64,000 bases of DNA, taken from the IMG/VR virus record IMGVR_UViG_3300030104_007872, positions 1 through 64,000 of that record. The stretch is one strand, 5' to 3'. This DNA comes from a virus. This document shows positions 41,045-61,166 of this stretch, piece after piece. The notes beneath the pieces were generated by a model. That model was not told where the DNA came from, searched no databases, and saw nothing but the letters and a program-made list of their open reading frames with translations. Position numbers and translations under genes: made by a program. How positions within the stretch are numbered: position 1 is the first letter of the stretch; the number at the start of each line of letters is the position of its first letter.

Positions 41045-41902
41045 ATGAGGTTTTTATTCGTATCAGATTTTACATTAGAGCAAAGATCGGGTGGCGCTCA
41101 GGTTAGTAATGACCTGATCATAAAAAGAGGACGCGAGTTGGGCCATGAAATCATTGAGCATGACTACACTTCTTCTCCTGTGGATTTTTTATCTTATTAC
41201 GACTCAATTATTAGCTCTAATCTTGAGGTTATAAGTAGGTCGGCGCCTATCAAACTAGATTTCATAACAAAACATGGAAACCATATACGGCTGGAGCACG
41301 ATTCTTGCTCCTATTTAAACGCAGAAGTTAGGCGGTCACTGTTCGAATCATCCAACCTTAACTTTTTTCTTTCGGATTTCCACATTGGGTTTTTTCGTGA
41401 AAGGTATGGAAATTACTTTGAGAATGTTGAAATCGTTTATGACCCTATTGACACTGGACTCTTTTGCGATGATAGCTCAGAAAAGATTTATGATGTGGTT
41501 TATTGTGGGTATTTGCACGAACTTAAGGGTTTAAAAAACTTACTACATTTCGCCTCCTCAAATCCAAATAGGGAAATATCAGTTTTTGGCTGGTGTGATT
41601 TTAAACCCGAATCAGCTTTTTCTGCTTTGGATAATATCTCCTTCCACGGAGAAAGGACTCACGAAGAAATTGCAAAGATATTTAAGCAAAGTTTAGCTGT
41701 ATATCACAGCCCAATAGTTAATGAACCCTTTTGCCGCATGGTTGGTGAGGCTCTTTTGTGCGGCGTTCGCGAGGTTATAGGCTCAACAGAGAAGATAGGC
41801 TCTTATTTAGAGTTTCAAAAACATGGTATCGAAAAGTTTAGCCAAGACTGTTCAAATGCTCCTGATGTATTTTGGCAAAAAGTACAGGAATCACTCAAAT
41901 GA
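41045..41902 (+). CDS. GT-B glycosyltransferase (GT4-like)
   Basis: GGAQ, GYLHELKG and EPFCRMVGEALLCG. Confidence 0.85.
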   Translation: MRFLFVSDFTLEQRSGGAQVSNDLIIKRGRELGHEIIEHDYTSSPVDFLSYYDSIISSNLEVISRSAPIKLDFITKHGNHIRLEHDSCSYLNAEVRRSLFESSNLNFFLSDFHIGFFRERYGNYFENVEIVYDPIDTGLFCDDSSEKIYDVVYCGYLHELKGLKNLLHFASSNPNREISVFGWCDFKPESAFSALDNISFHGERTHEEIAKIFKQSLAVYHSPIVNEPFCRMVGEALLCGVREVIGSTEKIGSYLEFQKHGIEKFSQDCSNAPDVFWQKVQESLK

Positions 41903-42807
41903 AAATAATTTTAGCGATTAATAAAACACTCAGCCGCAATCAAACCGAGTGTTTAGATGGCGGTTATTATAATTTCTATATTCCTCTTTTGGAGTTGGGC
42001 CACGAAGTTTTATTATACGATACTGTCAGAGGTGCAGAAAAAAGCTTCAATGAGCTTGTGGAAACCTTTAACCCCGATTTAATTTTTTGTTGTATTACTG
42101 GCAATAAAGAGGTCACCCCGTACGAACCATTTGAAGAAATAAAGCATATAACTAAAAACACAAAAATAAAAACATTCAATTGGTTTTGCGATGACACTTG
42201 GAGATTCGACGATTTTAGCAGTAAAGTTTGCAAACACTTCACTCATTGTTCGACGCCCGAAGAAAAATATTTAGATAGATATAAGGACATAGGATATGAA
42301 AATATTTTATTGGGGAATTGGCACTGCAACGCTGATTTGCGATTTCCTTATAATAAATCCGTCGATGTCGGCTTTTGTGGGGGTATCACTCAGGCACGAG
42401 CGAGCGTTTTCAATTCTCTTATAAGCGGTGGGGTCAATTTAAAATGTTTTTATGGACTGTCTTATGAGGATATTTTTAAAGCTTACGCCTCCTCTAGGAT
42501 AGGTATTAACCTTACTGTTAATGATAATGACCCCTCGAAAAAGCAGCAGATGAAGCTGCGTATCTTTGAGATTGTCGCATCGGGAACTTTCCTGCTAACA
42601 GAAAATGTGGAAGGTTTGGAAAAGTATTTTGAAATTGGAAAGGAAATAGAAACCTTTACAACACCCCAAGAGGCGCAGGAAAAAATAACACACTATCTTC
42701 AAAATGAAGAGGCTAGGGAAAAAATAGCTGCCGCTGGCCACAGACGCTTTTTGACAGATCACCGTTCAAGTGTTAGATTAACTGAGGTTTTGGAACAAAT
42801 AAAATAA
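41899..42807 (+). CDS. CgeB-like glycosyltransferase (Glyco_trans_1_2)
   Basis: WFCDD, SRIGIN, KLRIFEIVASGTFLLTE and IAAAGHRR. Confidence 0.85.
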   Translation: MKIILAINKTLSRNQTECLDGGYYNFYIPLLELGHEVLLYDTVRGAEKSFNELVETFNPDLIFCCITGNKEVTPYEPFEEIKHITKNTKIKTFNWFCDDTWRFDDFSSKVCKHFTHCSTPEEKYLDRYKDIGYENILLGNWHCNADLRFPYNKSVDVGFCGGITQARASVFNSLISGGVNLKCFYGLSYEDIFKAYASSRIGINLTVNDNDPSKKQQMKLRIFEIVASGTFLLTENVEGLEKYFEIGKEIETFTTPQEAQEKITHYLQNEEAREKIAAAGHRRFLTDHRSSVRLTEVLEQIK

Positions 42808-43737
42808 ATGACAATATACATACAGAAACATGGAAGCCACGCTGGCTACTGGATATACAGTGGATATGCACACGCATGGATTTATCATGGCTTTCAGGTG
42901 AAATTTTTTGAATCCTTTGAGGAGGTTGACACAAAACAGCCCTATGCCCTGATGATAACCGATTCTTGGCTTAATAACGAGTATGAGGATTACATTAATG
43001 CCTTTGATTATCTTAAAAAGAGCGAATTTTGTATACTTTATGCATCTCCAAAAGGTTTTCCTGACCCCTGGGGCACCCATCCTAATTTTGTATGCCCGCT
43101 CAACGACGAATTTATCAAAAAACTTGACGATATTGATAACTTAGTTAAGTGGAATTTTTCAGAAACTGACAATGAATATTTTTCTCATTGGAAAGACATA
43201 AAAACCATCCCCCTTGCATTCGATAATATAAATTACGAATGTGCAAAAGATGACGAAAAGGAATATTTATATGATGTCTGTTTCATCGGCAGCGTAGCTA
43301 ACAATGGCTTTAATGAAAAAATAGAAATCATAAAAGCTTGCTTAAATGCATTTGCCCACAGCGATTTAAATTGTGGGTTTTCTATCGGCCAAAATATTTC
43401 TCACGAAAAAGAAAACGAGGTTTTAATTAGGTCTAAAGTATGTTTAAATATTCACGATAAATATCAAAGGGTCTTAGGGTTGGATGCCAACGAAAGAACA
43501 TTCAAGTCTTTAGGCGCCAATGGGTTATTGGTTAGCGATTCTACAACTCAAGTAAAAAACCTCTTTCCAGATGTATTTTGTTCTAATGAACCGCAGGAGC
43601 TTGTGGATGAGTGCAGCAGGCTCGTTTCTAAGGATGTGAAGGAATTAAATAAAATTAAAAAACAAAACAGGCAAACCATAGAGGATCAACATTCCTATAT
43701 CAGAAGAGTCGAACAATTATTGACCTATGCGAATTAA
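42808..43737 (+). CDS. CgeB-like glycosyltransferase (Glyco_trans_1_2)
   Basis: YDVCFIG, SKVCLNIH, NERTFK and HSYIRRVEQL. Confidence 0.82.
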   Translation: MTIYIQKHGSHAGYWIYSGYAHAWIYHGFQVKFFESFEEVDTKQPYALMITDSWLNNEYEDYINAFDYLKKSEFCILYASPKGFPDPWGTHPNFVCPLNDEFIKKLDDIDNLVKWNFSETDNEYFSHWKDIKTIPLAFDNINYECAKDDEKEYLYDVCFIGSVANNGFNEKIEIIKACLNAFAHSDLNCGFSIGQNISHEKENEVLIRSKVCLNIHDKYQRVLGLDANERTFKSLGANGLLVSDSTTQVKNLFPDVFCSNEPQELVDECSRLVSKDVKELNKIKKQNRQTIEDQHSYIRRVEQLLTYAN

Positions 43738-44452
43738 TATAATCATTCCAAATTACAACAAGGAACCTTTTGTCATAAAGTGCCTTGAGTCTTGCTTAAA
43801 TCAGACTTATGAAAACTTAGGCGTCATTTTCATCGATAACGATAGTACTGATAATAGCTTGCAACTTGTTAAGGATTTTTCAAAAACGCACGACAGAGAT
43901 TTTATCATAGATGTGGCAGAAAATATCTATCCCCGCTGTTGGGAGGAATGTATAGAAAAGGCTGAACAATATTTAGATGGGGAATATTACACAATTGTTG
44001 GTTCAGATGATTACCTTGATGAGAATTATATCGCTAATTTTTGCGAGTGGATAAAAGAGCAAGAGGAGGAGGTCTTAGCCGTTCATTCAGACTTACTTTG
44101 GGTTGAGGATGGTAAAGATTTCAATTATACAACCTACAAGTATAGCGACATAGACGATTTAAAATTGAAATTAGTTCAAGGGTGCGCCATAAACAGCCCA
44201 ACAGTTTTTTATAGTAGGAAAATCACCGAGGATAAGAGCCTTAAGGCTAAACCAGAGGTATATAGCGGCGCAGCAGATTATGATTTTTATTGCCAATTGG
44301 TTGATAAGGGTATATTTATTCACAATATAGGCGACTGGATAGGCTATCATTACAACGTCAACAAATCTCAGGCAACGTGGGAGATGCATCTTGATCCTAT
44401 TAATTATACAAATGTAATTATTAAAAAGTATAAGGACAAGTGGAAAATTTGA
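43727..44452 (+). CDS. GT2 glycosyltransferase
   Basis: IIIPNYN, CLESCLNQTY, IDNDSTD, GSDD and AADYDF. Confidence 0.92.
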   Translation: MRINIIIPNYNKEPFVIKCLESCLNQTYENLGVIFIDNDSTDNSLQLVKDFSKTHDRDFIIDVAENIYPRCWEECIEKAEQYLDGEYYTIVGSDDYLDENYIANFCEWIKEQEEEVLAVHSDLLWVEDGKDFNYTTYKYSDIDDLKLKLVQGCAINSPTVFYSRKITEDKSLKAKPEVYSGAADYDFYCQLVDKGIFIHNIGDWIGYHYNVNKSQATWEMHLDPINYTNVIIKKYKDKWKI

Positions 44453-45750
44453 CGCAAACATTAGATAGTGTAAGGGATTTTTTACGGAGCAAATCCCCCA
44501 AAAAATGGATAGCTGGCGAAGATTATGTACAATATGCGGGGCCAGTTTTTGACGAAGAAGAGATATTATCCGCTGTAGAAACACTGTTGGACGGCTGGCT
44601 CGTTTTGGGCAAGCGAGGTTTATCTTTCGAGAGGCAGTTTTGCAAGCTGTTGGGTAAGGATTATGGCGTATTGACTAATAGCGGAAGTAGTTCGAACCTA
44701 ATAATGATGGAGGCCCTAAAATCCAAAAGATTATACGGACTCCCAAATGACACAAAAGTTATTACTCCTATAGCGGGATTTCCCACGACGCTAAATCCAA
44801 TATTTCAGGTAGGGTTTAAGCCACTGTTTGTAGATATTGACATCGATACTCTTAATTTAAATTTAGAGCAAGTAGAAGAAAAGGCTAAAAAAGGCGCAAA
44901 AGTAATAACATTTGCACATGTTTTGGGCAATCCACCAAATATGGATCAGCTAATGCAGATAGTGAATGAGTATGATTTGATTTTACTTGAGGATTGTTGT
45001 GATGCGCTAGGTTCCAGCTACAGAGGGAACGATTTGGGTAGTTTTGGAGAATTTTCCACATGTTCTTTTTATCCAGCCCACCATATTACAATGGGAGAGG
45101 GTGGATTTGTCGCTTCAAAAACCTACAACCAGCAAATTGTCGCTAGAAGCTTAAGGGAATGGGGGCGCGGATGTTATTGCGTAGGGGAAAAGGCGGGTTT
45201 GTCTAAAACGGGGTGCTGCGGCAAAAGGTTTAGCAATTGGCTTCCAAGTTTACCAGATGAAGTTTTTGATCACAAATATGTCTATGACGAGATTGGCTAT
45301 AATTTAAAACCTATTGAAATTCAAGCGGCTATCGGTTTGCAGCAACTGAAAAAATTACCTTCAATTATCACACGCAGAAAAGAAAACCATAAAAAACTTT
45401 ATGATATTTTTGCGAAACATGAAGAGTATTTTATTTTGCCAGAGGCAACCGATGGGAGTGACCCTAGTTGGTTTGCTTTCGCCGTAACTCTTCGCGATGG
45501 CTGTAAATTCAAGAGAAATGAAATAGTGGACTTTTTTGAGTCGCATAAAATACAAACGCGCCCTTATTTTGCTGGAAATATCATGTTGCAACCCGCTTAT
45601 CGCGGGATTGTCAACGCCGAGGATGTTGTTAAAAAGTATCCCAATGCTCGCAAAGTAACCACCGACACCATGTTTCTAGGAACCAGCCCAGTAATTACTG
45701 ATGAACAAATTAGATATATTGAAGAAGTTTTATATAATTTCATTGGATGA
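44440..45750 (+). CDS. rfbH: NDP-4-keto-6-deoxyglucose 3-dehydratase (E1, RfbH/DdhC)
   Basis: NSGSSSNL, FAHVLGNP, FYPAHHITMGEGG (His at the PLP-lysine site), Fe-S motif GRGCYC...CCG, FDHKY. Confidence 0.92.
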   Translation: MENLTQTLDSVRDFLRSKSPKKWIAGEDYVQYAGPVFDEEEILSAVETLLDGWLVLGKRGLSFERQFCKLLGKDYGVLTNSGSSSNLIMMEALKSKRLYGLPNDTKVITPIAGFPTTLNPIFQVGFKPLFVDIDIDTLNLNLEQVEEKAKKGAKVITFAHVLGNPPNMDQLMQIVNEYDLILLEDCCDALGSSYRGNDLGSFGEFSTCSFYPAHHITMGEGGFVASKTYNQQIVARSLREWGRGCYCVGEKAGLSKTGCCGKRFSNWLPSLPDEVFDHKYVYDEIGYNLKPIEIQAAIGLQQLKKLPSIITRRKENHKKLYDIFAKHEEYFILPEATDGSDPSWFAFAVTLRDGCKFKRNEIVDFFESHKIQTRPYFAGNIMLQPAYRGIVNAEDVVKKYPNARKVTTDTMFLGTSPVITDEQIRYIEEVLYNFIG

Positions 45751-46694
45751 AGATAGTTTATGTCACAGGGTGCTTGGGTTTTATTGGATCTCACATTACG
45801 CGACACTGCCTGAATAAGGGGTGGTATGTTAAGGGTGTTGATAAGCTTACTTATGCTGCCAACAGGGAGTTTCTAAACGAATTTCAAAAATTCGAAAATT
45901 TTTCATTCCTACAAGAGGATATCAATGATCTAAAGTTTTTATATGAATGTGACTATGTTATTAATACCGCAGCGGAAACTCATGTGGGAAACAGTATCAT
46001 TAGTAGCGCTGATTTCATAAAATCAAACATTGATGGGGTCCATAATTTGCTAGAATTGATTAAGAATTATAGAATAGAAAACCTCAAAAAACCAACACTG
46101 TTACATCTTAGCACTGACGAAGTTTATGGAGATATTGCCAATGGAGATCACGGAGAGGAAGATCTTTTAAGGCCAAGTAACCCATATTCAGCGACTAAAG
46201 CTGCTGCCGACATGCTAATTTTAGCTTGGGCTCGCACTCACTCGATACCTTACCTTATTGTTAGACCCACGAACAACTACGGAATTGGTCAGTATGTAGA
46301 AAAATTAATTCCCAAGGCTTGTAAGTATTTAAAAATCAAGAAAAAAATACCCCTTCATAATGGGGGTGAACCCGTAAGGAATTGGTTACACGCCGATGAT
46401 ACCGCGAGTGCGATCACCACACTGATAGACAGTGGTTGTAAAAACGAAATATATAATATTTCTGGGCCTTTTGAGCAAAGTAATTATGAGACCTGCAAAA
46501 AAATCATTAAACTCTTCGACCCAAGTTTGAAAGTGGACGAGTGTTTAGATTTTTCCTATGATAGGGCAGGTCAAGATGTTCGATACGCTCTTAATGATTC
46601 CAAGCTACAGGGTATTGGCTGGTCCGCGTCAAAAAACTTTGATGAGGAATTACCAGCAATAGTTGACCACTATAAGCATAAATTTATCTGGTAA
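45747..46694 (+). CDS. rfbB: dTDP-glucose 4,6-dehydratase-like
   Basis: DKLTYA, AAETHV, STDEVYG, PYSATKA and NNYG. Confidence 0.9.
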   Translation: MKIVYVTGCLGFIGSHITRHCLNKGWYVKGVDKLTYAANREFLNEFQKFENFSFLQEDINDLKFLYECDYVINTAAETHVGNSIISSADFIKSNIDGVHNLLELIKNYRIENLKKPTLLHLSTDEVYGDIANGDHGEEDLLRPSNPYSATKAAADMLILAWARTHSIPYLIVRPTNNYGIGQYVEKLIPKACKYLKIKKKIPLHNGGEPVRNWLHADDTASAITTLIDSGCKNEIYNISGPFEQSNYETCKKIIKLFDPSLKVDECLDFSYDRAGQDVRYALNDSKLQGIGWSASKNFDEELPAIVDHYKHKFIW

Positions 46695-47704
46695 TGAGAG
46701 CTTGTGATTACATAGCGACAGCATTGAGCAAAAGAGGCGTAAAGTATGTTTACGGCGTAATGGGCGGCGGTGCTGCGGGTTTAAATGATGGCTTCATTAA
46801 AAACAGCAATATACAATACATCGGCTTTCACCATGAGCAGGGGGCAAGTCATGCAGCTATAGGGGAAAGCAAGGTTACAAAAAAAATTGCAGTCGTTAAT
46901 CCGACCACGGGTTGTGGTGGCACTAATTGCGTAACTTCGGTCTTGGATGCGTGGCAAGACAGTATACCAGTGGTATTCATATCGGGCAATGTGCGCTTAA
47001 GTCATACCAGTTCACACATCAATAGAATAAACAATACATCAATTAGAAAATTTGGAATACAGGAACACGATATCGTTTCTACAGTAAAATCAATTACAAA
47101 GTATTCAAAATTTGTAGAGACAGCGGAGGATGTTCCATACGAACTTGAACGTGCTATTCATGAGGCGACAAGCGGAAGAATGGGGCCAGTGTGGCTAGAC
47201 ATTCCCAGTGATGTTCAGCATGGTGACATACCCGAAACCCACAAAACCTTTACTCCTGGAATTGATAACGTTTTAAATAAAGGTTTAGACTATGTAGAGC
47301 AAAGCATTAACAATTATGACAGGCCGTTAGTCCTTGCGGGGTATGGTGTGGTTTTAAGCGATTCTAAAAACGACTTTAAAAAGTTTATCGAACAAAACAA
47401 CGTACCTTTTGTTACTAGTTATTTAGGTATTGATATTCTTGGTTATGAACACCCACTAAACTTGGGAACTATAGGAATCAAGGGCAGTAGGGCGGGTAAT
47501 TTTGCGATTCAAAATTGTGATTGCCTAATAGTGATGGGTTGCTCTCTCAACAGTTCGCATTTAGGCTATGATGAAAATTTGTTTTCTCCGAAGTCCCACA
47601 AAATAATCATTGACATAGATTCAGATGAACACGCAAAAAACAAAGTTAAGATAGACAAATTAATAAAAGCAGATTTGCGCGAATTTTTTAATCATGAAAG
47701 CTGA
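46694..47704 (+). CDS. ThDP-dependent carboligase, N-terminal and middle domains (YerE/acetolactate-synthase-like)
   Basis: HHEQGA, AWQDSIP, GIQE, GPVWLDIP and NFAIQNCD. Confidence 0.88.
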   Translation: MRACDYIATALSKRGVKYVYGVMGGGAAGLNDGFIKNSNIQYIGFHHEQGASHAAIGESKVTKKIAVVNPTTGCGGTNCVTSVLDAWQDSIPVVFISGNVRLSHTSSHINRINNTSIRKFGIQEHDIVSTVKSITKYSKFVETAEDVPYELERAIHEATSGRMGPVWLDIPSDVQHGDIPETHKTFTPGIDNVLNKGLDYVEQSINNYDRPLVLAGYGVVLSDSKNDFKKFIEQNNVPFVTSYLGIDILGYEHPLNLGTIGIKGSRAGNFAIQNCDCLIVMGCSLNSSHLGYDENLFSPKSHKIIIDIDSDEHAKNKVKIDKLIKADLREFFNHES

Positions 47705-48443: not shown

Positions 48444-48445
48444 TT

Positions 48446-54558: not shown

Positions 54559-54559
54559 C

Positions 54560-55237: not shown

Positions 55238-56208
55238 ATGAGTCAGTAGAGAGAGTGGTTTATATGAATGGGGAGTTTATTCCCGAGTCGCAGGCTAAGG
55301 TATCTATATATGATTCTGCCCTCATGTTTGGCGATATGGTTTTTGAAATGACCCGCTCGTTTAATAAGAAGCAATTCAAATTACGGGAACATTTGGAAAG
55401 GTTATACGCATCGATGAAATATATTCACCTCGATTACCCAATGAGTATTGAGGAGATGGAAGATGCAGTTTACAAAACTATCGAAGTTAATGAGCCCGCT
55501 TTCGGAAAGGACGATGAGCACCGTATTATGATTGATGTCACACGGGGACTACTGGGAATATACGAGGGGGTTAACGGATTACGGTCTGGGCCAAATGTAA
55601 TTATAGCGGATTTTCCGCTAAAGTGGACGGTGAGTTCTATGGGCCATTTATTTGATACGGGTATCAATGCGGTAATAACCTCACAAAGAGCTATTCCTGC
55701 TTCTCTTTTAGAGCCCAAAATAAAAAATAGAAGTAGGATACATTACCTTATGGCTAACATAGAGGCGTCAAAGATGAAGGGTCAAGATAACTGGGCTCTT
55801 TTGCTTGATCCCGATGGATTCGTGGCCGAGGGCACGGGGGATAATTTCTTCATAGTTAAAAACGGACAGATAGTTACTCCTGAACCCCGTAATATTTTGC
55901 GCGGCATAAGCAGAGATTATATATTTGAATTGTCGCAGCAGCTTAATATTAAGTGTATTGAAAAAAACATTGAGCCATATGATGTAATGATGGCTGACGA
56001 AGCTTTTATGACGGGCACACCATTTTGCCTCCTTCCTGTGACAAGCTTAAATTCTGTTAAAATTGGTGACGGAGCCATGGGATCACTTACGCGCTTGCTA
56101 TTGGATCGCTGGAGCGCCAATGTAGGCTTAGACATAGAAAGGCAGATTAAAGATTATTCTTGTCCATCCAATTCATCATCTCCGTCTCCATACATTTTTA
56201 AAAAATGA
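55234..56208 (+). CDS. class IV PLP aminotransferase (IlvE/D-amino-acid-transaminase fold)
   Basis: YMNGEF, HLERL, EGTGDNFF, LRGISR and ADEAFMTGT. Confidence 0.9.
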   Translation: MNESVERVVYMNGEFIPESQAKVSIYDSALMFGDMVFEMTRSFNKKQFKLREHLERLYASMKYIHLDYPMSIEEMEDAVYKTIEVNEPAFGKDDEHRIMIDVTRGLLGIYEGVNGLRSGPNVIIADFPLKWTVSSMGHLFDTGINAVITSQRAIPASLLEPKIKNRSRIHYLMANIEASKMKGQDNWALLLDPDGFVAEGTGDNFFIVKNGQIVTPEPRNILRGISRDYIFELSQQLNIKCIEKNIEPYDVMMADEAFMTGTPFCLLPVTSLNSVKIGDGAMGSLTRLLLDRWSANVGLDIERQIKDYSCPSNSSSPSPYIFKK

Positions 56209-56978
56209 AGTTGGGAATAATTCAAGGTAGATTGTCTGAACCAATCGAGGGCTTCCAAGAGTGTCCAGAAAATTGGGCTAGAGAGTTCGAGTTATTGGTA
56301 GGTTTTAAATTGAATCATATAGAATGGATTGTTACAGCGGAGAAATTTAATACCAACCCCCTTTTCGCTGAAAATTTACGGAATTATCCAATTTCTTCTG
56401 TTTGCGCTGATTTTATGGTTAGCGAAAAGTTTTCGGATGGCGATTATTTAAAGCGTTTTTTGCGGCCCACTTGCGAAGCAGTTTTGCGTCATGGGATCAA
56501 ACATTTGACCATCCCCCTCCTAGAGGAAAGTGATGTGAGCAACTCAAAAGCAAGAGAGATATTTGCGAGTAATTTTGCACCTTATGTAGAAGAGTTTAGC
56601 GATATTACTTTTTTAATAGAAGCGGAACTTCATCAAGATAAACTAAAGGATCTTCTTGAGATCAGCCCAACCTTAGGTGTGACTTATGATACGGGCAATA
56701 TTACTTCTTGTGGTTTCAGTCACGAAAACTATATTAAGGAACTTAAAGACAGAATCAAACAAGTTCACATAAAGGATAGGACTATAAATCCAGTGGAAAC
56801 CGTTCCACCCACACGGGGACGCACTGATTTTAATTTAATTTTTAAAAAGCTTAAAGAGATAAATTTTGACGGTCCATATACACTTCAAACGGCCCGCGAA
56901 AAAACGGGAAATGAACTTGAAACAATTCAAAAACACGCAACAATAATACGAAATTTATATTATGAAGAATTTTTTTAA
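56205..56978 (+). CDS. sugar-phosphate isomerase/epimerase (xylose-isomerase-like TIM barrel)
   Basis: LGIIQGRLS, YDTGN, VHIKDR and YTLQTAR. Confidence 0.85.
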   Translation: MKLGIIQGRLSEPIEGFQECPENWAREFELLVGFKLNHIEWIVTAEKFNTNPLFAENLRNYPISSVCADFMVSEKFSDGDYLKRFLRPTCEAVLRHGIKHLTIPLLEESDVSNSKAREIFASNFAPYVEEFSDITFLIEAELHQDKLKDLLEISPTLGVTYDTGNITSCGFSHENYIKELKDRIKQVHIKDRTINPVETVPPTRGRTDFNLIFKKLKEINFDGPYTLQTAREKTGNELETIQKHATIIRNLYYEEFF

Positions 56979-57777
56979 CCTAAAGGGCAAAACCGCCTTA
57001 ATCACAGGCGGGGGTGGGCTTTTAGGGCCAAAACATGCTGAAGCGATTATTGAGCAGGGTGGCCGTGTTATTTTAGCTGATTGGCACCAAGATCGAGCCG
57101 CAAAAAAAGCCGAGCAACTCAACAGAGAACATGGAGAATCCGTTGCTGATTGGCATCACATGGACGTTACCGATAAATTGTCCATCGAAAGGGTTGTCGA
57201 TAAATATAATAAAATAGATATCCTAATAAATAATGCAGCTAAAGATCCAAAAGTTAAAAAAGATGCGGGGCTTACGGTTGAATCGAGGTTTGAAACCATG
57301 ACTGAGAAATATTGGCAAGAGGGGGTAGATGCAGCCTTAAATGGAACGTTTTTGTGCTCACAGGTTGTTGCAAACTTAATGTTGAAGTGTGGCGGTGGAG
57401 TGATTCTTAATATTGCTTCTGATTTAGGTGTTATAGCTCCCGATCAGCGCATTTACGAAAAAGAAGGGTTAGATGAGGATCAACAAAATGTTAAACCAAT
57501 TACTTATTCTGCGGCAAAATGGGCCATTATAGGTATGACTAAATATTTGGCGGTTTATTTCGCTAAGAAAAATATACGAGTCAATTCACTTAGCCCCACA
57601 GCAGTCTACAATAATCATCCAGAAGATTTTGTGGAAAAGTTGACGAATTTAATTCCAATGGGTAGGATGTCAGATATCAATGAATACAAAGGGGCAATTG
57701 CTTTTTTGTGCTCTGACGCAAGCTCTTATATGACAGGAGAAAATTTGGTAATCGATGGTGGTAAGAGCGTATGGTAA
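56962..57777 (+). CDS. classical SDR oxidoreductase (PtmA-like)
   Basis: TGGGGLLG, LINNAA, YSAAK and YMTGENLVIDGG. Confidence 0.88.
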   Translation: MKNFFNLKGKTALITGGGGLLGPKHAEAIIEQGGRVILADWHQDRAAKKAEQLNREHGESVADWHHMDVTDKLSIERVVDKYNKIDILINNAAKDPKVKKDAGLTVESRFETMTEKYWQEGVDAALNGTFLCSQVVANLMLKCGGGVILNIASDLGVIAPDQRIYEKEGLDEDQQNVKPITYSAAKWAIIGMTKYLAVYFAKKNIRVNSLSPTAVYNNHPEDFVEKLTNLIPMGRMSDINEYKGAIAFLCSDASSYMTGENLVIDGGKSVW

Positions 57778-58067
57778 TATATGTAGATATCGACGGGACG
57801 ATTTGTGAGTCAGCGCCAACAGGTGATTATTCAGATGCGCTACCAGTCCAAAGCTCTATAAATAAAATAAACAAATTATATCACGAAGGTAACACCATTA
57901 TCTATTGGACTGCTCGTGGCACTGTAACATATATAGATTGGCTAGAGATGACCAAAGATCAGTTAAATCAGTGGGGCTGTTTATTTCACGATGTTAGAGC
58001 AGGAAAGCCTCAGTATGATTTATGGATTGATGATAAATCTATAAAAATAGAAGAACTTGATGAGTAA
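57771..58067 (+). CDS. minimal HAD phosphatase
   Basis: DIDGTI, WTARG and GKP.YDLWIDDK. Confidence 0.88.
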   Translation: MVIYVDIDGTICESAPTGDYSDALPVQSSINKINKLYHEGNTIIYWTARGTVTYIDWLEMTKDQLNQWGCLFHDVRAGKPQYDLWIDDKSIKIEELDE

Positions 58068-58986
58068 AATATTAGTAACAGGTGGCTCGGGAATGGTGGG
58101 CAAACATTTGCAAAAAATCTTACCGAATGCGGAATATTTTTCAAGTCGTTCTTGTAATCTTAAAAGGGAATCGTTGACTTCTGCGGTCTTTTACAAAATG
58201 CGGCCCGACGTGGTGATTCATCTTGCTGCGAAGGTGGGCGGGATTTTAGACAACATAAGACATCCCGTAGAATTCTTTGAAGATAACATAGCAATAAACA
58301 ATAATGTTATAAAGTCCGCTTATGAAAGTGGCTGTAAAAAAATAATTTCAGTTTTAAGTACCTGCATTTATCCAGATGAGGTTCCAGAGTCAGATTATCC
58401 GATGGTCGAGGCATCTCTGCATTCTGGGCCTCCTACACCAACCAATTTTGCATATGGTTATGCAAAAAGATGTCTGGCGGTTCAGTTAGCAGCCTATAAT
58501 CAACAGCACAATACTCAATACAGCACTTTAATTCCCTGCAATTTATATTCAGAATACGATCACTTTGAGGGTGAAAGGGCTCATTTTTTATCTAGCCTAA
58601 TAAATAAAATTGATACAGCTAAACGCCAAAACGCTAAAAAGATTAACCTCTTGGGCACTGGAGCGCCACTGCGGCAGTTTATGTATGCGGGGGATTTAGC
58701 TGAGGCAATTGTATTAACCTTAGATAAAGATGATGTCTTCAATTATAACATTTGCACACCTGAAAACAAGAGCATTAAAGAGATCTGTGATATTGCGCTA
58801 GAGGCATGTGATGCTACCCATCTAAGTGTCGAGTGGGACGAAACAAAACCCGACGGCCAATATAGGAAGGACGCCTCGTCAAAGAGATTCTTAAAAGATT
58901 TTCCAGATTTCAAATTTACCAAACTTGTAGAAGGAATTAAAAAAACTTATAATATAATCAGTAATGAAAGAGTGGAGACTAAATGA
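58057..58986 (+). CDS. fcl: GDP-fucose/colitose synthase (Fcl/ColC)
   Basis: HLAAKVGGI, STCIYP, YGYAKR, GTGAPLRQF and KPDGQYRK. Confidence 0.9.
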   Translation: MMSKILVTGGSGMVGKHLQKILPNAEYFSSRSCNLKRESLTSAVFYKMRPDVVIHLAAKVGGILDNIRHPVEFFEDNIAINNNVIKSAYESGCKKIISVLSTCIYPDEVPESDYPMVEASLHSGPPTPTNFAYGYAKRCLAVQLAAYNQQHNTQYSTLIPCNLYSEYDHFEGERAHFLSSLINKIDTAKRQNAKKINLLGTGAPLRQFMYAGDLAEAIVLTLDKDDVFNYNICTPENKSIKEICDIALEACDATHLSVEWDETKPDGQYRKDASSKRFLKDFPDFKFTKLVEGIKKTYNIISNERVETK

Positions 58987-60133
58987 ACCAAACGTTACCT
59001 TTTGGGATAGGTTAAAGATTTGCTCATTTTTTCTGAATCCTAAAAATTTCTGGACGATGAACGGTAAAGTCTCTCTCTTTGAGGAGTCTATGGCCGATTA
59101 TGTAGGCTGCAAATACGCGGTTTATGTTTCCAGCGGCTCGACCGCTAATACCTTATTGGCTATGCATCTTCGTGATAATATTGCGAAGAATAATATCGAG
59201 AAAGATACCATAGTTTTTCCATCTACCACTTGGACCACTTCGATTTCTCCTTTTTTAAGGGAGGGGTTCAAGCCGAAATTTATAGACGTAAACCTCAAAG
59301 ACTTCTCTATTGATTTAGATTCTCTTGAGAATTACCTAAAAGACAATCATGAGCAAGTTTGCTGCGTTTTTCTGACTTCTTTGATTGGATTTGTGCCTGA
59401 CATGAAAAGGCTTGAGGCTATCTCTAAACGCTTCAACGTTAAGGTAATGTTGGATAATTGTGAAAATACTTTTGGCACCTACGGCGGTAAAAATGTTTCG
59501 TCTTTTTTCACCTCTACCACCAGCACATATTTTGGACACCAGATTCAGAGTGTCGAGGGCGGCTTTGTATTCACTAATTGTCAAGATGAATACGAATATT
59601 TTTTAATGGCTCGCAATCACGGCTTAACTCGCAGCCTTAAAAATTCTTCACACGTTCGCAATAAAAATGTTGACCCGCAGTTTGATTTTTTTCTACTGGG
59701 TAATAATTTTCGCAATACAGACATCAATGCCTTCATAGGTCTTTTGGACTTTAAAAGGATAGATAAAATAAAGAATAAGAGGGAAAAACTGTATGAGGTT
59801 TTTTTAAATGAATTAAAATGCAACATGGGCCTTTCCTTGCCGAGTGAGTTGCGCGGTCATTCCCCGTTTTGCTTGCCAGTTTTGTGCGATACTGTAAAAC
59901 AGAAATCCCTTTTGTTGAAATATTGTAAAGAAAACAATATTGAGACTAGGCCAATTATCTCAGGAAATTTATTAAAACAAAGCTGTTATTCCGCTTTTGC
60001 TGATCCGCTTTCGTTTCCCAATAGCGAGCGCTTGCACACGCATGGGTTTTATGTCGGGCTACACGCGCACGTTAAAAAGTCTCAGGTTGAAAAATTAACC
60101 TCACACATTAATATCACTTTAAATGAAAAATAA
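58964..60133 (+). CDS. colD: GDP-4-keto-6-deoxymannose 3-dehydratase (ColD-like)
   Basis: DegT fold; STYFGHQIQSVEGG with His at the PLP-lysine site; ETRPIISGN; lies between fcl and gmd. Confidence 0.78.
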   Translation: MKEWRLNEPNVTFWDRLKICSFFLNPKNFWTMNGKVSLFEESMADYVGCKYAVYVSSGSTANTLLAMHLRDNIAKNNIEKDTIVFPSTTWTTSISPFLREGFKPKFIDVNLKDFSIDLDSLENYLKDNHEQVCCVFLTSLIGFVPDMKRLEAISKRFNVKVMLDNCENTFGTYGGKNVSSFFTSTTSTYFGHQIQSVEGGFVFTNCQDEYEYFLMARNHGLTRSLKNSSHVRNKNVDPQFDFFLLGNNFRNTDINAFIGLLDFKRIDKIKNKREKLYEVFLNELKCNMGLSLPSELRGHSPFCLPVLCDTVKQKSLLLKYCKENNIETRPIISGNLLKQSCYSAFADPLSFPNSERLHTHGFYVGLHAHVKKSQVEKLTSHINITLNEK

Positions 60134-61166
60134 AAAAATTATAATTACAGGAGTTACTGGACAGGATGGAAGCCTTATGGCCGATTATCTGTTGAAAAAC
60201 ACGGAGCATACCGTGGTTGGTGGCGTTCGTAGACTGAGCGTCAAAAATCATCAAAACATCCAGCATTTGCTAAAAAATCCTCGGTTTTATCTGATTGATC
60301 TAGACGTAACAGACAGCCAGAATATCGCTAGGGTTATTGAATCCGAAAAGCCTGATTATTTTATTAATTTTGCTGCAAATTCCTTCGTTGGTGTGAGTTG
60401 GGAAATGCCCTTGAACAATATGGAAACCAATTGCATGGCTGTCCTGCATCAGTTGGAGGCAATTCGTTCACATGCGCCAAAATGCCGTTATTACAACGCA
60501 GGAAGCTCAGAGGAGTTTGGCGATGTTGTGGAGACACCGCAGACCGAAGACCACCCCTTGCGCCCCAGAAGCCCATATGGAGCGTCAAAATGCGCCGCTA
60601 GGCATTTAGTTAAGGTCTATAGAGATTCTTACGATATTTATGCTGTTCAGGGTTGGCTCTTTAACCACGAGGGTGTGCGCCGTGGTGAAGAATTCGTAAC
60701 GCGAAAAATAACCAAGAATGTCGCAAGAATAGAGGGTGAGTTTCGCAAGGGCGACGGAATTACACCGCTGCAATTAGGAAATGTGGACGCTAAACGAGAT
60801 TGGAGTGACGCGGAAGATTTTGTAGACGGTGTTTGGAAAATGTTAAATCAAGATAAGCCAAAAGATTACATCTTATCATCCAATGAAACCCACACAATCA
60901 GAGAGTTTGTTGAAGAGGCTTTTAATTACGCAGGCTTTCATCGCAGCATGTGCTCTTGGCGCGGCGAGCATGAGGATGAAAAATATTTTCATGGAGATGA
61001 TTGTTTGGTAGAAATTAATCCTATTTTTTATCGCCCAGCGGAAGTAGATATCTTGTTGGGTGATTCAACCAGAGCACGTCAAGAGCTAGGTTGGTCACCA
61101 AAAACAGATTTCCTAAATCTTGTCAAGAAGATGGTTGACACGGATATCAAGGAGCGCAATACTTAG
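60123..61166 (+). CDS. gmd: GDP-mannose 4,6-dehydratase
   Basis: TGVTGQDGS, PRSPYGASK, LFNHE, FVTRKI and YRPAEV. Confidence 0.95.
   Translation: MKNKKIIITGVTGQDGSLMADYLLKNTEHTVVGGVRRLSVKNHQNIQHLLKNPRFYLIDLDVTDSQNIARVIESEKPDYFINFAANSFVGVSWEMPLNNMETNCMAVLHQLEAIRSHAPKCRYYNAGSSEEFGDVVETPQTEDHPLRPRSPYGASKCAARHLVKVYRDSYDIYAVQGWLFNHEGVRRGEEFVTRKITKNVARIEGEFRKGDGITPLQLGNVDAKRDWSDAEDFVDGVWKMLNQDKPKDYILSSNETHTIREFVEEAFNYAGFHRSMCSWRGEHEDEKYFHGDDCLVEINPIFYRPAEVDILLGDSTRARQELGWSPKTDFLNLVKKMVDTDIKERNT

What the first reader, a model, noticed from the sequence alone, without database searches (positions are those of the whole stretch)
41045..61166. 20-kb cytoplasmic glycan cluster that looks like a phage virion O-glycosylation system
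Seen: 22 tightly packed same-strand genes encode three sugar pathways and six transferases, with a seventh at 35673. None looks like a flippase, polymerase, undecaprenyl transferase or other membrane protein. One transferase (50160) carries Maf/DUF115 motifs next to neuB. Established: Maf proteins are linked to transfer of nonulosonates from CMP donors to Ser/Thr of flagellin in the cytoplasm. Inference: the acceptor is soluble and phage-made, most likely virion protein rather than host LPS, giving a glycan coat of colitose, a branched deoxysugar and a nonulosonate. DNA modification is the alternative, but no base-hydroxymethylase is visible in this window.
Basis: partly seen in the sequence, partly recalled or inferred. 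Interest (0 to 1): 0.85.

Follow-up and report, generated by a model that had tools for sequence, protein, structure and literature searches.

The report
Hypervariable sugar-coat gene island in marine phage
An abundant, uncultured marine phage carries a 20-kb block of soluble enzymes that make three rare sugars and link them into a glycan; related phages swap this block wholesale, like a bacterial serotype locus, and it most likely decorates the virus particle, though the target is unproven.

Summary
Window 41045-61166 holds 23 co-directional ORFs separated by at most 5 nt. They encode three pathways:
- a GDP-colitose-type pathway;
- an acyl-branched 3,6-dideoxyhexose pathway (E1 dehydrase, split YerE-like ThDP enzyme, PanB);
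- a non-canonical CMP-nonulosonate pathway.

There are six transferases, and a seventh, lineage-core GT lies at 35673.

New findings:
1. The block fills a fixed slot between RNR and UvsX. Flanks are 67-85% identical across relatives. Seven islands (4-19 kb) share almost no genes except the Gmd gene that closes the slot.
2. The Maf-like protein is only the catalytic core of Maf. Its family is almost wholly viral or metagenomic.
3. The Maf/NeuB module also occurs in unrelated T4-like phages.
4. A 94%-complete relative has no multi-pass membrane protein, initiating phosphoglycosyl transferase, flagellin, thymidylate-synthase homologue or C5-methyltransferase.

DNA glycosylation is therefore unlikely. 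A self-contained cytoplasmic glycosylation system is well supported. Virion protein is the favoured acceptor (about 45%) but is not shown. Remodelling of host envelope glycans through host export machinery remains a serious rival (about 30%). The step from Maf to Ser/Thr O-linkage is weak, because the acceptor-recognition parts of true Maf systems are missing.

The parts
35673..36752 (-). Lineage-core GT-B glycosyltransferase, next to the tail genes and outside the island
   Evidence: PHROG 2170. AF2 model pLDDT 91. Best solved match is the chlorovirus NY2A GT 3oy2, E = 6e-16. 65% identical in relative G001. More than 2000 homologue clusters; the 120 best listed are 59-69% identical apart from its own cluster.
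40597..41010 (+). Conserved 137-aa ORF that marks the left border of the island slot
   Evidence: 35-51% identical homologue directly after RNR in G001, L068, L071, L088, L095 and L096. No family match.
41045..41902 (+). GT1-type glycosyltransferase, first gene of the island
   Evidence: PF00534, 26.5 bits, at the cut-off. 48-58% homologues at the same edge in L059 and L088.
41872..42807 (+). Glyco_trans_1_2 (CgeB-like) glycosyltransferase
   Evidence: PF13524, E = 6e-28. 43-45% homologues in module contigs L106 and L107.
42808..43737 (+). Second Glyco_trans_1_2 glycosyltransferase
   Evidence: PF13524, E = 1e-13. Homologues in L003, L004, L106 and L107.
43727..44452 (+). GT2 glycosyltransferase
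   Evidence: PF00535, E = 2e-18. Syntenic 35-39% homologues in many module loci.
44440..45750 (+). E1-type NDP-4-keto-6-deoxyhexose 3-dehydrase (RfbH/DdhC)
   Evidence: NCBIfam RfbH, 456 bits, above the 423 cut-off. E = 1e-100 to solved E1 3bcx. His at the PLP-Lys position and the Fe-S cysteines are conserved.
45747..46694 (+). NDP-hexose 4,6-dehydratase (dTDP-glucose type)
   Evidence: TIGR01181, 291 bits, below the equivalog cut-off of 365. 60-61% homologues sit next to RfbH in seven listed module loci (L003, L010, L013, L016, L106, L107) and in L004, L011, L012 and L014.
46694..47704 (+). YerE-like ThDP enzyme, N-terminal and middle domains (first half of the split enzyme)
   Evidence: PF02776 and PF00205. 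Best solved matches are JanthE 8rph (E = 3e-52) and 5ahk. 8rph is a YerE-like enzyme (PMC12188165). The same split occurs in L013.
47694..48443 (+). YerE-like ThDP enzyme, C-terminal ThDP-binding domain (second half)
   Evidence: PF02775, E = 3e-28. 44% homologue as a separate ORF in L011-L014.
48446..49375 (+). PanB (3-methyl-2-oxobutanoate hydroxymethyltransferase). Proposed to make the gamma-hydroxy alpha-keto-acid donor for the ThDP enzyme.
   Evidence: TIGR00222, 264 bits, above the 208 cut-off. Syntenic with the ThDP enzyme in L011-L014. The role is an inference from the scheme in PMC9306805.
49381..50163 (+). Short SDR, a candidate YerF-like side-chain or 4-keto reductase
   Evidence: PF01370, E = 1e-16. 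Syntenic with RfbH and the 4,6-dehydratase in L003, L010, L013, L106 and L107.
50160..51248 (+). Minimal Maf/MptE-like CMP-nonulosonate transferase (catalytic core only, with a 70-100 aa low-confidence insert)
   Evidence: PF01973, E = 4e-15. Z = 15.0 to the Maf 5mu5 central domain, 13.3 to MptE, 10.7 to Cst-I. Family data.
51245..52093 (+). NeuB-type nonulosonate (or nonulosonate-9-phosphate) synthase without a SAF domain
   Evidence: PF03102, E = 4e-60. TIGR03569, 228 bits, below cut-off. Best solved match is the 290-aa 6ncs.
52098..52535 (+). 145-aa protein of unknown function
   Evidence: No Pfam or NCBIfam match. Atlas neighbours are viral hypothetical clusters; weak DUF4254 lead. Not conserved in other module loci.
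52532..53521 (+). GalE-like NDP-sugar epimerase/dehydratase
   Evidence: PF01370, E = 6e-52; TIGR01179, 140 bits, below cut-off.
53509..54558 (+). Tentative GT9/TIGR04372-like glycosyltransferase
   Evidence: TIGR04372, 36 bits (cut-off 45), and weak heptosyltransferase matches. No Pfam match.
54560..55237 (+). CMP-nonulosonate synthetase (cytidylyltransferase)
   Evidence: PF02348, E = 1e-23; PseF-like, 130 bits. Syntenic with NeuB and the Maf-like gene in nearly all module loci.
55234..56208 (+). Class IV (IlvE-type) aminotransferase. Proposed to supply 2-oxoisovalerate, or to act as a sugar aminotransferase.
   Evidence: PF01063, E = 7e-50; branched-chain aminotransferase models, 196-223 bits, below cut-off.
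56205..56978 (+). Xylose-isomerase-like TIM-barrel enzyme (sugar or sugar-phosphate isomerase/epimerase)
   Evidence: PF01261, E = 8e-13. 44-61% homologues near NeuB in L016, L018 and L106.
56962..57777 (+). Classical SDR oxidoreductase paired with the TIM-barrel enzyme
   Evidence: PF13561, E = 1e-43. 59-80% homologues in L016, L018 and L106.
57771..58067 (+). Small HAD phosphatase (capsule-biosynthesis phosphatase type), a candidate nonulosonate-9-P phosphatase
   Evidence: TIGR01689, E = 4e-7. 48-58% homologues in L003-L007 and L015, and 44% next to NeuB in cyanophage AG-345-L05.
58057..58986 (+). Fcl/ColC-like GDP-4-keto-6-deoxyhexose epimerase-reductase
   Evidence: NF047922 GDP-L-fucose synthase, 193 bits, below cut-off. 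PF01370.
58964..60133 (+). ColD-like GDP-4-keto-6-deoxymannose 3-dehydratase
   Evidence: Best solved match is E. coli ColD/WbdK 2gms, E = 4e-42. His at the PLP-Lys position.
60123..61166 (+). GDP-mannose 4,6-dehydratase (Gmd), the conserved right-hand anchor of the island
   Evidence: PF16363, E = 7e-106. 65-83% identical and always directly before UvsX in about 40 relatives.

Best explanation
This is a self-contained cytoplasmic glycan-assembly island of an abundant, uncultured marine tailed-phage lineage.

Shown by homology: it draws on host GDP-mannose, an NDP-glucose, PEP and CTP, and makes three activated sugars.
1. A GDP-colitose-type 3,6-dideoxyhexose (Gmd, ColD-like, Fcl/ColC-like).
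2. An NDP-3,6-dideoxy-4-keto-hexose, made by a 4,6-dehydratase and an E1 dehydrase. A split YerE-like ThDP enzyme then acylates it at C-4.
3. A non-canonical CMP-nonulosonate (NeuB, small HAD phosphatase, cytidylyltransferase; the precursor is shaped by a TIM-barrel isomerase, SDRs and a GalE-like enzyme).

Inferred:
- The acyl donor for pathway 2 is ketopantoate, made by the IlvE-type transaminase and PanB. The short SDR then reduces the branch.
- Five soluble GTs and a minimal Maf/sialyltransferase-like enzyme assemble these sugars into an oligosaccharide. It is probably built on a primer laid down by the lineage-core GT at 35673.
- The acceptor is reachable from the cytoplasm. The most likely acceptor is one or more virion structural proteins.
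- The result would be a strain-variable glycan coat. Its composition turns over by wholesale replacement of the island between the conserved RNR and Gmd/UvsX flanks.
For: Enzyme assignments:
- The catalytic His replaces the PLP-Lys in both dehydrases, and the E1 Fe-S cysteines are kept.
- The ThDP enzyme's best solved relatives are 8rph and 5ahk. 8rph is the YerE-like enzyme JanthE.
- In bacteria, YerE-like enzymes sit beside the enzymes that make their alpha-keto-acid donors. Gamma-hydroxy alpha-keto acids are accepted donors (PMC9306805). ThDP-PanB synteny recurs in L011-L014.

Maf-like enzyme:
- Z = 15 to the Maf catalytic domain.
- It is adjacent to NeuB or the cytidylyltransferase in nearly all of the 16 viral loci found.

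No export or lipid-carrier machinery.

No DNA-hydroxymethylation entry enzymes.

Evolutionary pattern:
- The island slot is present in every relative examined, always closed by Gmd.
- The seven fully spanned islands measure 4.0-19.1 kb, with flanks 67-85% identical and 0-2 shared ORFs per pair.
- All the islands are made of glycan genes: GT2, GT6, GT11, LicD, sulfo- and methyltransferases, and NeuB plus a cytidylyltransferase in G001.
- The core GT lies beside the tail genes and is strongly conserved.

Precedents: mycobacteriophage virion glycosylation (as cited in PMC12619734) and clade-specific glycan clusters of giant viruses (PMC10117803, listed).
Against: - No acceptor was identified.
- No virion protein has an obvious Ser/Thr-rich tail.
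- The Maf-like enzyme lacks the acceptor-recognition domains, and no GlfM-type partner of true flagellin Maf systems was recognised. It may act on a sugar rather than on a protein.
- The same module occurs in T4-like phages with unrelated virion proteins. The module itself is therefore not tailored to one protein acceptor.
- The island lies in one co-directional block with nucleotide-metabolism and replication genes, not with late structural genes.
- Soluble GTs also act on lipid-linked intermediates in ordinary LPS pathways.
- This contig is incomplete.
- The ketopantoate-donor idea is inference only.
Confidence: 0.45

Rival explanations
1. Host-envelope remodelling. The phage GTs work at the inner face of the host membrane on host lipid A-core or on undecaprenyl-linked O-units, or on host S-layer, pilin or flagellin subunits before export. 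Host MsbA, Wzx or ligase, or the secretion apparatus, then carries the altered glycan to the cell surface. This would block superinfection or stop progeny from adsorbing to debris.
For: - GTs of bacterial LPS pathways are likewise soluble or peripheral. The absence of membrane proteins therefore does not exclude this.
- The Maf-like fold is also close to the LOS sialyltransferase Cst-I (Z 10.7; sequence hits).
- One tentative GT is heptosyltransferase-like.
- Colitose and acyl-branched dideoxyhexoses are classic LPS sugars (PMC9306805).
- The module is portable between phages with unrelated virions.
- A module-only contig is binned with a Planctomycetales MAG.
Against: - The slot is filled in every relative examined, and a core GT is 59-69% conserved among the best 120 of more than 2000 clusters. 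That looks like a core function of the virus rather than a sporadic accessory gene.
- No integrase or lysogeny genes were seen.
- No initiating transferase is present.
- Host flippases and polymerases are usually specific for their own units. Complete turnover of island content among close relatives would need a very permissive host export system.
Confidence: 0.3
2. DNA hypermodification. The GTs build a glycan on a modified base of the phage genome to evade restriction, as in T-even phages and the glycosylated 5hmC/5hoC systems.
For: - The island sits between the RNR genes and the recombination/replication genes, in one co-directional block.
- Hypervariability fits an arms race with restriction systems.
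- Phage DNA GTs are related to LPS enzymes and can add mono- to trisaccharides (bioRxiv 10.1101/2023.12.21.572611).
Against: - Known routes need a thymidylate-synthase homologue, or a C5-methyltransferase plus a TET/JBP dioxygenase.
- PF00303 and PF00145 are absent from this contig and from the 94%- and 82%-complete relatives, with positive controls.
- PF12851 is also absent, but its control did not ring.
- The papers read here report only hexose, HexNAc, heptose or arabinose on DNA.
- Seven GTs and three rare-sugar pathways far exceed known DNA glycans.
Confidence: 0.06
3. Another soluble acceptor or product. The enzymes glycosylate a non-structural phage or host cytoplasmic protein, or make a free oligosaccharide or small glycoconjugate with a role in takeover or signalling.
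For: Nothing ties the GTs to a particular acceptor. All the enzymes are cytoplasmic. Unknown ORFs lie in and beside the island.
Against: I know of no precedent for such a large, hypervariable pathway serving an intracellular target. Wholesale turnover of gene content is typical of exposed surface structures.
Confidence: 0.12
4. Artefact. The island is bacterial DNA mis-assembled into a viral contig, or the contig is a bacterial flagellin or LPS glycosylation island mis-called as viral.
For: Three module-only contigs are binned in bacterial MAGs. CheckV rates this contig as only 29% complete.
Against: - The island is flanked on both sides by phage genes. These flanks are collinear with a 94%-complete 104-kb viral genome and with dozens of independent contigs that carry an island in the same slot.
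- GC content matches the flanks.
- Pieces covering both the flank and the island at 99% identity or more occur in marine samples from several studies.
- The MAG contigs are only 9-13 kb and hold nothing but the module.
Confidence: 0.02

Closest known systems
Maf (motility accessory factor) flagellin nonulosonate O-glycosyltransferases of Campylobacter, Helicobacter, Aeromonas, Shewanella, Clostridium and Magnetospirillum (PDB 5mu5)
   Same: - PF01973 catalytic domain.
- Best structural match: Z 15, 201 residues aligned.
- The gene sits beside NeuB and a CMP-nonulosonate synthetase.
- The enzyme acts in the cytoplasm.
   Different: - Only the central domain is present. Typical family members are 220-320 aa, against 632 residues in the 5mu5 chain.
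- There is no N-terminal Rossmann-like domain, no C-terminal helical or TPR domain, and no recognisable GlfM partner. These parts confer flagellin recognition.
- There is no flagellin or flagellar gene in the phage genomes.
- The family is essentially viral or metagenomic.
GT42 bacterial sialyltransferases Cst-I and Cst-II, which sialylate lipooligosaccharide glycans
   Same: Similar size. Shared GxGPS and (T/S)xG...G(I/M)D motifs in profile alignments. Fold match with Z 10.7. CMP-nonulosonate donor.
   Different: Sequence similarity is marginal (E = 0.08-0.25). The structural score is lower than for Maf or MptE. The acceptor is unknown.
Mycobacteriophage virion O-glycosylation (Freeman et al. 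2023, Cell Host Microbe, as cited in PMC12619734)
   Same: Phage-encoded soluble GTs, in that case shown to glycosylate capsid and tail-tube subunits in the cytoplasm.
   Different: As I recall, those phages encode GTs but not sugar-nucleotide pathways. Here there are three complete rare-sugar pathways, seven GTs, a nonulosonate, and island-level hypervariability. No biochemical evidence exists here.
Autonomous glycosylation clusters of giant viruses: Megavirinae fibril glycans (PMC10117803) and chlorovirus capsid glycans (PMC7826918, PMC9614988)
   Same: Virus-encoded pathways for rare bacterial-type sugars plus GTs, varying by clade. The core GT here is structurally closest to a chlorovirus GT (3oy2), and many BFVD hits are giant-virus GTs.
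   Different: This is a roughly 105-kb tailed phage of bacteria. The sugars differ (colitose type, acyl-branched dideoxyhexose, nonulosonate). Gene content turns over completely among relatives whose flanks are 67-85% identical.
Bacterial O-antigen and capsule loci (Wzx/Wzy- or ABC-dependent)
   Same: Hypervariable glycan gene content between conserved flanking genes. Typical O-antigen sugars: colitose, and 3,6-dideoxyhexoses of the yersiniose/erwiniose type made by E1 plus a YerE-like enzyme.
   Different: There is no initiating phosphoglycosyl transferase, flippase, polymerase, chain-length regulator or ABC transporter. The locus lies in a viral genome.
Phage DNA glycosylation systems: T-even glucosyl-5hmC, arabinosyl-5hoC in RB69/DLP3 (PMC13326640), and MT/5mYOX/GT clusters (bioRxiv 10.1101/2023.12.21.572611)
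   Same: Phage-encoded GTs, sometimes with sugar-nucleotide synthesis genes, located among nucleotide-metabolism and replication genes. Variable between relatives.
   Different: The base-hydroxylation or hydroxymethylation entry enzymes are absent. The sugar chemistry is far more complex than in any DNA glycan reported in the papers read.

Membership tests
Maf flagellin nonulosonate glycosyltransferase | MptE-like/Maf_flag10 catalytic domain (PF01973) | tested here: met
   PF01973, E = 4e-15, 56 bits against a cut-off of 34.6. Z = 15.0 over 201 residues to 5mu5.
Maf flagellin nonulosonate glycosyltransferase | Three-domain architecture, or a TPR domain or GlfM partner, providing flagellin recognition | tested here: not met
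   The model aligns only to 5mu5 residues 260-509 of a 632-residue chain. The family is typically 220-320 aa. The domain roles come from PMC11339370 and bioRxiv 10.1101/2023.12.03.569772. Whether the 145-aa ORF at 52098 is a GlfM analogue could not be tested.
Maf flagellin nonulosonate glycosyltransferase | Genomic linkage to CMP-nonulosonate biosynthesis genes | tested here: met
   NeuB is directly downstream and the cytidylyltransferase lies 3.3 kb downstream. The same linkage holds in nearly all of the 16 viral loci.
Maf flagellin nonulosonate glycosyltransferase | Linkage to flagellin or flagellar genes, with flagellin as acceptor | tested here: not met
   No Flagellin_N match in G000, G001 (94% complete) or G002, with positive controls. 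Activity on host flagellin cannot be tested here.
GT42 sialyltransferase (Cst-I/Cst-II) | Sequence and fold membership | tested here: inconclusive
   Profile E-values of 0.08-0.25. Z = 10.7, rmsd 3.9, 184 aligned residues to 2p56. Foldseek probability 0.97 and TM about 0.47 to Cst-II.
GDP-L-colitose pathway (Gmd, ColD, ColC) | GDP-mannose 4,6-dehydratase | tested here: met
   PF16363, E = 7e-106. TIGR01472, 337 bits, which is below the strict equivalog cut-off of 415.
GDP-L-colitose pathway (Gmd, ColD, ColC) | ColD-type PMP-dependent 3-dehydratase with His in place of the PLP lysine | tested here: met
   Best solved match is ColD/WbdK 2gms, E = 4e-42. His lies six residues before the EGG motif.
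GDP-L-colitose pathway (Gmd, ColD, ColC) | ColC epimerase-reductase, as distinct from GDP-fucose synthase | tested here: inconclusive
   Fcl model, 193 bits against a cut-off of 500. No ColC-specific model was available.
Yersiniose/erwiniose-type acyl-branched 3,6-dideoxyhexose pathway | NDP-hexose 4,6-dehydratase plus an E1 3-dehydrase with a [2Fe-2S] motif | tested here: met
   RfbH model, 456 bits, above the 423 cut-off. E = 1e-100 to 3bcx, with the His and Cys residues conserved. The dehydratase is of the dTDP-glucose type rather than the CDP-glucose type.
Yersiniose/erwiniose-type acyl-branched 3,6-dideoxyhexose pathway | Dedicated E3 (DdhD) reductase | tested here: not met
   No such domain was found among the cluster ORFs scanned. 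A host reductase would be needed.
Yersiniose/erwiniose-type acyl-branched 3,6-dideoxyhexose pathway | YerE-like ketone-accepting ThDP carboligase | tested here: met
   The best solved relatives are 8rph (E = 3e-52) and 5ahk (E = 5e-48). 8rph is the YerE-like enzyme JanthE. The enzyme is split into two ORFs, here and in L013.
Yersiniose/erwiniose-type acyl-branched 3,6-dideoxyhexose pathway | Adjacent enzyme that makes the alpha-keto-acid donor, plus a YerF-like reductase | tested here: inconclusive
   PanB (above cut-off) and a short SDR are adjacent and syntenic in L011-L014. Their roles are inferred from PMC9306805 and were not assayed.
Wzx/Wzy- or ABC-dependent surface polysaccharide locus | Initiating phosphoglycosyl transferase, flippase, polymerase or transporter | tested here: not met
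   No PF02397. No ORF with three or more hydrophobic segments in G000 or G001. In 1.24 Mb of related loci the only such ORF lies in the unrelated cyanophage locus L019.
Phage DNA glycosylation system | Thymidylate-synthase-family hydroxymethylase/hydroxylase, or a C5-methyltransferase plus a TET/JBP dioxygenase | tested here: not met
   PF00303 and PF00145 are absent, with positive controls. PF12851 is absent, but its control was silent, so that part is inconclusive.
Phage virion protein glycosylation (mycobacteriophage type) | Glycan covalently attached to capsid or tail subunits | not testable with these tools
   This needs mass spectrometry of virions. The composition scan found no distinctive Ser/Thr-rich tails.

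The most novel reading that the evidence does not exclude
Abundant marine phages carry a serotype-like glycan coat on the virion. It is built entirely by viral cytoplasmic enzymes and includes a nonulosonate added by a virus-specific minimal Maf/sialyltransferase, and a previously undescribed ketopantoate-derived C5-branched dideoxyhexose. The coat is diversified by wholesale exchange of a glycan island, much as bacteria exchange O-antigen loci. This implies strong, so far unrecognised selection on phage surface glycans in the ocean.
Probability: 0.35. Interest if true: 0.88.

Novelty: new variant of a known kind. Interest (0 to 1): 0.7.

Why it matters
Virus-encoded glycosylation has been shown for giant viruses, a few mycobacteriophages and phage DNA. 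It has not been described as a hypervariable, core genomic island in an abundant marine phage lineage.

If the glycan is on the virion, phage particles would have 'serotypes'. That would open testable questions about what selects them: host recognition, defence, grazing, or stickiness to particles.

The locus also yields three items that can be tested at the bench:
- A virus-specific family of minimal Maf/sialyltransferase-like enzymes (157 representative clusters).
- A predicted new acyl-branched sugar pathway in which PanB supplies the ThDP enzyme's donor.
- A set of soluble GTs, in the relatives' islands, with unusual donor specificities.

If the target is instead the host envelope, this would be an unusually elaborate case of surface remodelling by a lytic phage.

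Tried and rejected
- DNA and protein searches of INPHARED isolates. Megablast with the island found nothing. The Maf-like protein had no hit. The terminase is at most 26% identical to any isolate. There is no cultured relative to lean on.
- Ser/Thr-rich tails in virion proteins as a glycosylation cue. Nothing distinctive was found, so this is not evidence either way.
- The 145-aa ORF at 52098 as a GlfM-like adaptor. The atlas gives only viral hypothetical clusters and a weak DUF4254 lead. The ORF is not conserved in other module loci. This remains an untested lead.
- Promoter and terminator scan of 37.5-57.4 kb. Counts are at chance level, so no internal transcription units can be claimed.
- RNA evidence. 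No RNA holder was listed.
- Read laying. Only short, low-depth Logan contigs were available. They show that this island variant exists in several marine samples. Depth cannot be used to show a 'metagenomic island' dip. The higher depth over RNR in one run is not interpretable.
- TET/JBP search. It is negative, but the control genomes were silent too, so it is inconclusive.
- Terminase search in Maf-bearing contigs. It is negative, but those contigs are fragments. The gp23 search gave the usable answer.
Pfam-annotated neighbourhoods of the metagenomic Maf-like homologues could not be obtained.
- Foldseek on the Maf-like model gave no match at E <= 0.001. VIA-align was needed.
- A canonical Pse, Leg or Neu5Ac pathway was considered and rejected. 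No PseB/C/H/G, LegB/C/H/G or NeuC equivalents were recognised.
- A 6-deoxy nonulosonate made from the E1 product was rejected on chemical grounds, because there would be no C-6 hydroxyl for the pyranose ring. This is my own inference.

Full report
**What the sequence is.** The window is the first 64 kb of a 78,084-bp IMG/VR viral contig.
- Upstream of the finding lie PhoH, an ERCC4/zinc-finger nuclease, the large terminase, divergent head genes, a 2340-aa tape-measure-like protein, minor tail proteins and ribonucleotide reductase.
- Downstream lie a UvsX/RecA-like protein, DnaB, primase, a PD-(D/E)XK nuclease, PHP and exonuclease proteins, PolIII-alpha, a ClpB-like ATPase and a PSCyt2/PSD1 protein.
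- The contig is a tailed phage. CheckV calls it 29% complete, but it is collinear with a 104,265-bp relative (G001) rated 94% complete. The lineage genome is therefore about 105 kb.
- There is no cultured relative. The terminase is at most 26% identical to any isolate's.
- The lineage is abundant and diverse in marine metagenomes. A search with its UvsX returned 150 related stretches, of which the 80 kept are 67-92% identical. One core gene has more than 2000 homologue clusters, including Tara sequences. All sequencing runs that hold the stretch are marine.

Between 41045 and 61166 there are 23 co-directional ORFs that overlap or lie at most 5 nt apart. Pfam, NCBIfam and PDB comparisons give three pathways.

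*(i) A GDP-colitose-type pathway.*
- Gmd is at 60123.
- A ColD-like dehydratase is at 58964. Its best solved relative is E. coli ColD, E = 4e-42, and it has His at the position of the PLP lysine.
- An Fcl/ColC-like epimerase-reductase is at 58057.

*(ii) A branched 3,6-dideoxyhexose pathway.*
- A dTDP-glucose-type 4,6-dehydratase is at 45747.
- An E1 3-dehydrase is at 44440. It scores 456 bits on the RfbH model, above the cut-off, and E = 1e-100 to solved E1. The catalytic His and the Fe-S cysteines are conserved.
- A ThDP enzyme is split into two ORFs (46694, 47694). Its best solved relatives are 8rph and 5ahk. 8rph is JanthE, a YerE-like ketone-accepting carboligase.
- A bona fide PanB is at 48446, above the equivalog cut-off.
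- A short SDR is at 49381.

*(iii) A non-canonical CMP-nonulosonate pathway.*
- A 282-aa NeuB without a SAF domain is at 51245.
- A 98-aa HAD phosphatase is at 57771.
- A PseF-like cytidylyltransferase is at 54560.
- A GalE-like enzyme, a xylose-isomerase-type TIM barrel, an SDR and a class IV aminotransferase complete the set.
- No PseB/C/H/G, LegB/C/H/G or NeuC equivalents are present. The NeuB-HAD pairing suggests a Kdn-like route through a 9-phosphate intermediate; this is an inference.

*Transferases.* These are at 41045 (GT1, borderline), 41872 and 42808 (Glyco_trans_1_2), 43727 (GT2), 50160 (MptE/Maf-like) and 53509 (tentative GT9/TIGR04372-like). A GT-B enzyme at 35673 lies on the other strand.

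*Precursors.* No NDP-hexose pyrophosphorylase and no E3 reductase are encoded in the cluster. The precursors and that reductase must come from the host.

**A proposal for PanB.** In bacterial LPS clusters, YerE-like enzymes sit next to the enzymes that make their alpha-keto-acid donors and next to a YerF-like reductase. ErwE prefers gamma-hydroxy alpha-keto acids, and transamination of amino acids is an alternative route to such donors (PMC9306805). Ketopantoate is a gamma-hydroxy alpha-keto acid made by PanB from 2-oxoisovalerate, which an IlvE-type transaminase makes from valine.

I therefore propose this route: IlvE (55234) to PanB (48446) to the split ThDP enzyme, acting on the E1 product, followed by reduction by the SDR at 49381. 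The product would be a 3,6-dideoxyhexose with a C5 hydroxy-dimethyl branch. The arrangement ThDP-ThDP-PanB-SDR-E1-dehydratase recurs at 34-61% identity in L011-L014, which supports a functional link. The chemistry itself is inference.

**The Maf-like enzyme.**
- PF01973 matches at E = 4e-15.
- An AlphaFold model (pLDDT 71.5, high outside a 100-residue insert) aligns best to the central catalytic domain of Magnetospirillum Maf: Z 15.0, 201 residues, chain residues 260-509 of 632.
- The next matches are archaeal MptE (Z 13.3), the LOS sialyltransferase Cst-I (Z 10.7) and mammalian sialyltransferases (Z 7.5-8.4). Sequence profiles touch Cst-I, Cst-II and Maf only weakly.
- It is very likely a CMP-nonulosonate transferase, but it is only the catalytic core.
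- In real flagellin systems, the acceptor is recognised by a C-terminal TPR domain (Maf-1) or by the cis-encoded four-helix protein GlfM (Maf-2). The Magnetospirillum enzyme has additional N- and C-terminal domains. None of these is present here.
- The family has 157 representative clusters at E <= 1e-30, mostly 220-320 aa.
- It is found in 16 other IMG/VR loci and in no isolated phage.
- Among 185,579 species genomes it occurs in only three short MAG contigs, and these consist of nothing but the same module.

**The module is mobile among phages.**
- The order GT1_2 - GT2 - SDR - E1 - dehydratase - Maf-like - NeuB - cytidylyltransferase recurs in those viral loci. Some add ThDP/PanB, TIM-barrel/SDR, or HAD/Fcl-like/Gmd blocks.
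- Two of the long host contigs encode a T4-type gp23 capsid protein. This lineage's near-complete genome does not.
- A Kyanoviridae single-virus genome has the SDR - NeuB - HAD part without the Maf-like gene.

**The island is a hypervariable slot.**
- In roughly 40 relatives with enough flank, UvsX is always preceded by Gmd (65-83% identical), but the genes upstream of Gmd differ.
- Seven genomes span the whole slot. Their flanking RNR, Gmd and UvsX genes are 67-85% identical.
- Their islands measure 4.0, 4.3, 6.5, 7.3, 7.9, 11.6 and 19.1 kb. Any two share 0-2 ORFs at 40% identity or more.
- All are glycan islands. G001 has NeuB, a cytidylyltransferase, a class III aminotransferase, a methyltransferase, a formyltransferase, a PIG-L deacetylase and a PhyH dioxygenase.
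- The other five hold GT2, GT6, GT11, Anp1-like and LicD proteins, sulfotransferases, O- and C-methyltransferases, epimerases and a pyrophosphorylase.
- The GT at 35673, beside the tail genes, is by contrast conserved: 65% in G001, and 59-69% among the 120 best of more than 2000 clusters, apart from its own. It has a GT-B fold, and its best solved match is a chlorovirus GT.

**What the acceptor is not.**
- No real gene in the 78-kb contig has two or more hydrophobic segments.
- G001 has no ORF with three or more.
- In 1.24 Mb of related loci, the only such ORF is one in the cyanophage locus L019.
- Bac_transf is absent, as is flagellin.
- The papers read state what DNA glycosylation needs: a thymidylate-synthase homologue, or a C5-methyltransferase with a TET/JBP dioxygenase. 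These are absent from G000, G001 and G002. The TET control was silent, so that test is inconclusive.

**Weighing the readings.** A slot that is always filled, conserved anchors, a conserved GT next to the structural genes, and complete turnover of the variable part all resemble a serotype locus for an exposed structure that the virus always needs. For a virus, that structure is most simply the particle. Mycobacteriophages and giant viruses provide precedents. I put this reading at about 45%.

The host-envelope reading is at about 30%, for these reasons:
- LPS-type GTs are soluble anyway.
- The Maf-like fold is also sialyltransferase-like.
- The sugars are classic LPS sugars.
- The module moves between phages with unrelated virions.

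Its portability also suggests that the Maf-like enzyme acts on a sugar primer rather than on a specific protein. DNA modification is at about 6%, another soluble target at about 12%, and assembly artefact at about 2%. Nothing computed here identifies the acceptor.

**Novelty.** My searches of the held literature found no description of a phage-encoded Maf-like transferase, of nonulosonate pathways in phages, or of a hypervariable glycan island in phage genomes. The kind of system, virus-encoded glycosylation, is known. This is a new variant, with a new enzyme subfamily and a predicted new sugar.

Noticed in passing
G000 contig 75891-77624 (L002:15891-17624), beyond the window's end: A phage-encoded PSCyt2/PSD1 (DUF1549/DUF1553) protein, a family typical of Planctomycetes and Verrucomicrobia. 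One of the three MAG contigs that carry the Maf module is binned as Planctomycetales. Together these hint at a PVC-group host.
   Followed up: partly
window 46694-48443, and L013:4146-5897: The YerE-like ThDP enzyme is split into two ORFs (N-terminal plus middle domains, and the C-terminal ThDP-binding domain). The split is the same here and in an unrelated T4-like contig, so it is a genuine two-subunit form and not a frameshift.
   Followed up: partly
window 50160-51248, residues about 146-246: This copy of the Maf-like protein has a 70-100 aa insert that most family members lack. Only P0002 and P0003 share it. It is modelled with pLDDT below 50 and could be an acceptor-binding addition.
   Followed up: no
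window 37713-37962: The intergenic region is divergent. It lies between the minus-strand cluster that ends with GT 35673 and the long plus-strand block that begins with RNR. It holds a perfect TTGACA-16-TATAAT match on the minus strand (37890-37863) and a 10/12 match on the plus strand. Overall counts in the region are at chance level.
   Followed up: no
L068, L071, L088, L095 and L096 islands: The relatives' islands include a GT11 (alpha-1,2-fucosyltransferase type), a GT6 (blood-group A/B transferase type), sulfotransferases and LicD-family proteins. With the conserved Gmd, this suggests that some relatives make fucosylated, histo-blood-group-like, sulfated or phosphocholine-bearing glycans.
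   Followed up: no
G000 whole contig compared with G001: CheckV rates this 78-kb contig as 29% complete. A collinear 104-kb relative is rated 94%. The 29% figure is probably an underestimate.
   Followed up: partly
window 8888-9895, and G000 70789-73215: There is an ERCC4-type nuclease fused to a C2H2 zinc finger just before the terminase. A full-length ClpB-like double AAA+ chaperone follows PolIII-alpha. Both are conserved in G001.
   Followed up: no
MH319754.1 (L019:17358-21106): The Kyanoviridae single-virus genome AG-345-L05 carries an SDR, a NeuB (56% identical) and a small HAD phosphatase in a row, without a Maf-like gene. Nonulosonate-type synthesis genes therefore also occur in cyanomyoviruses.
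   Followed up: partly
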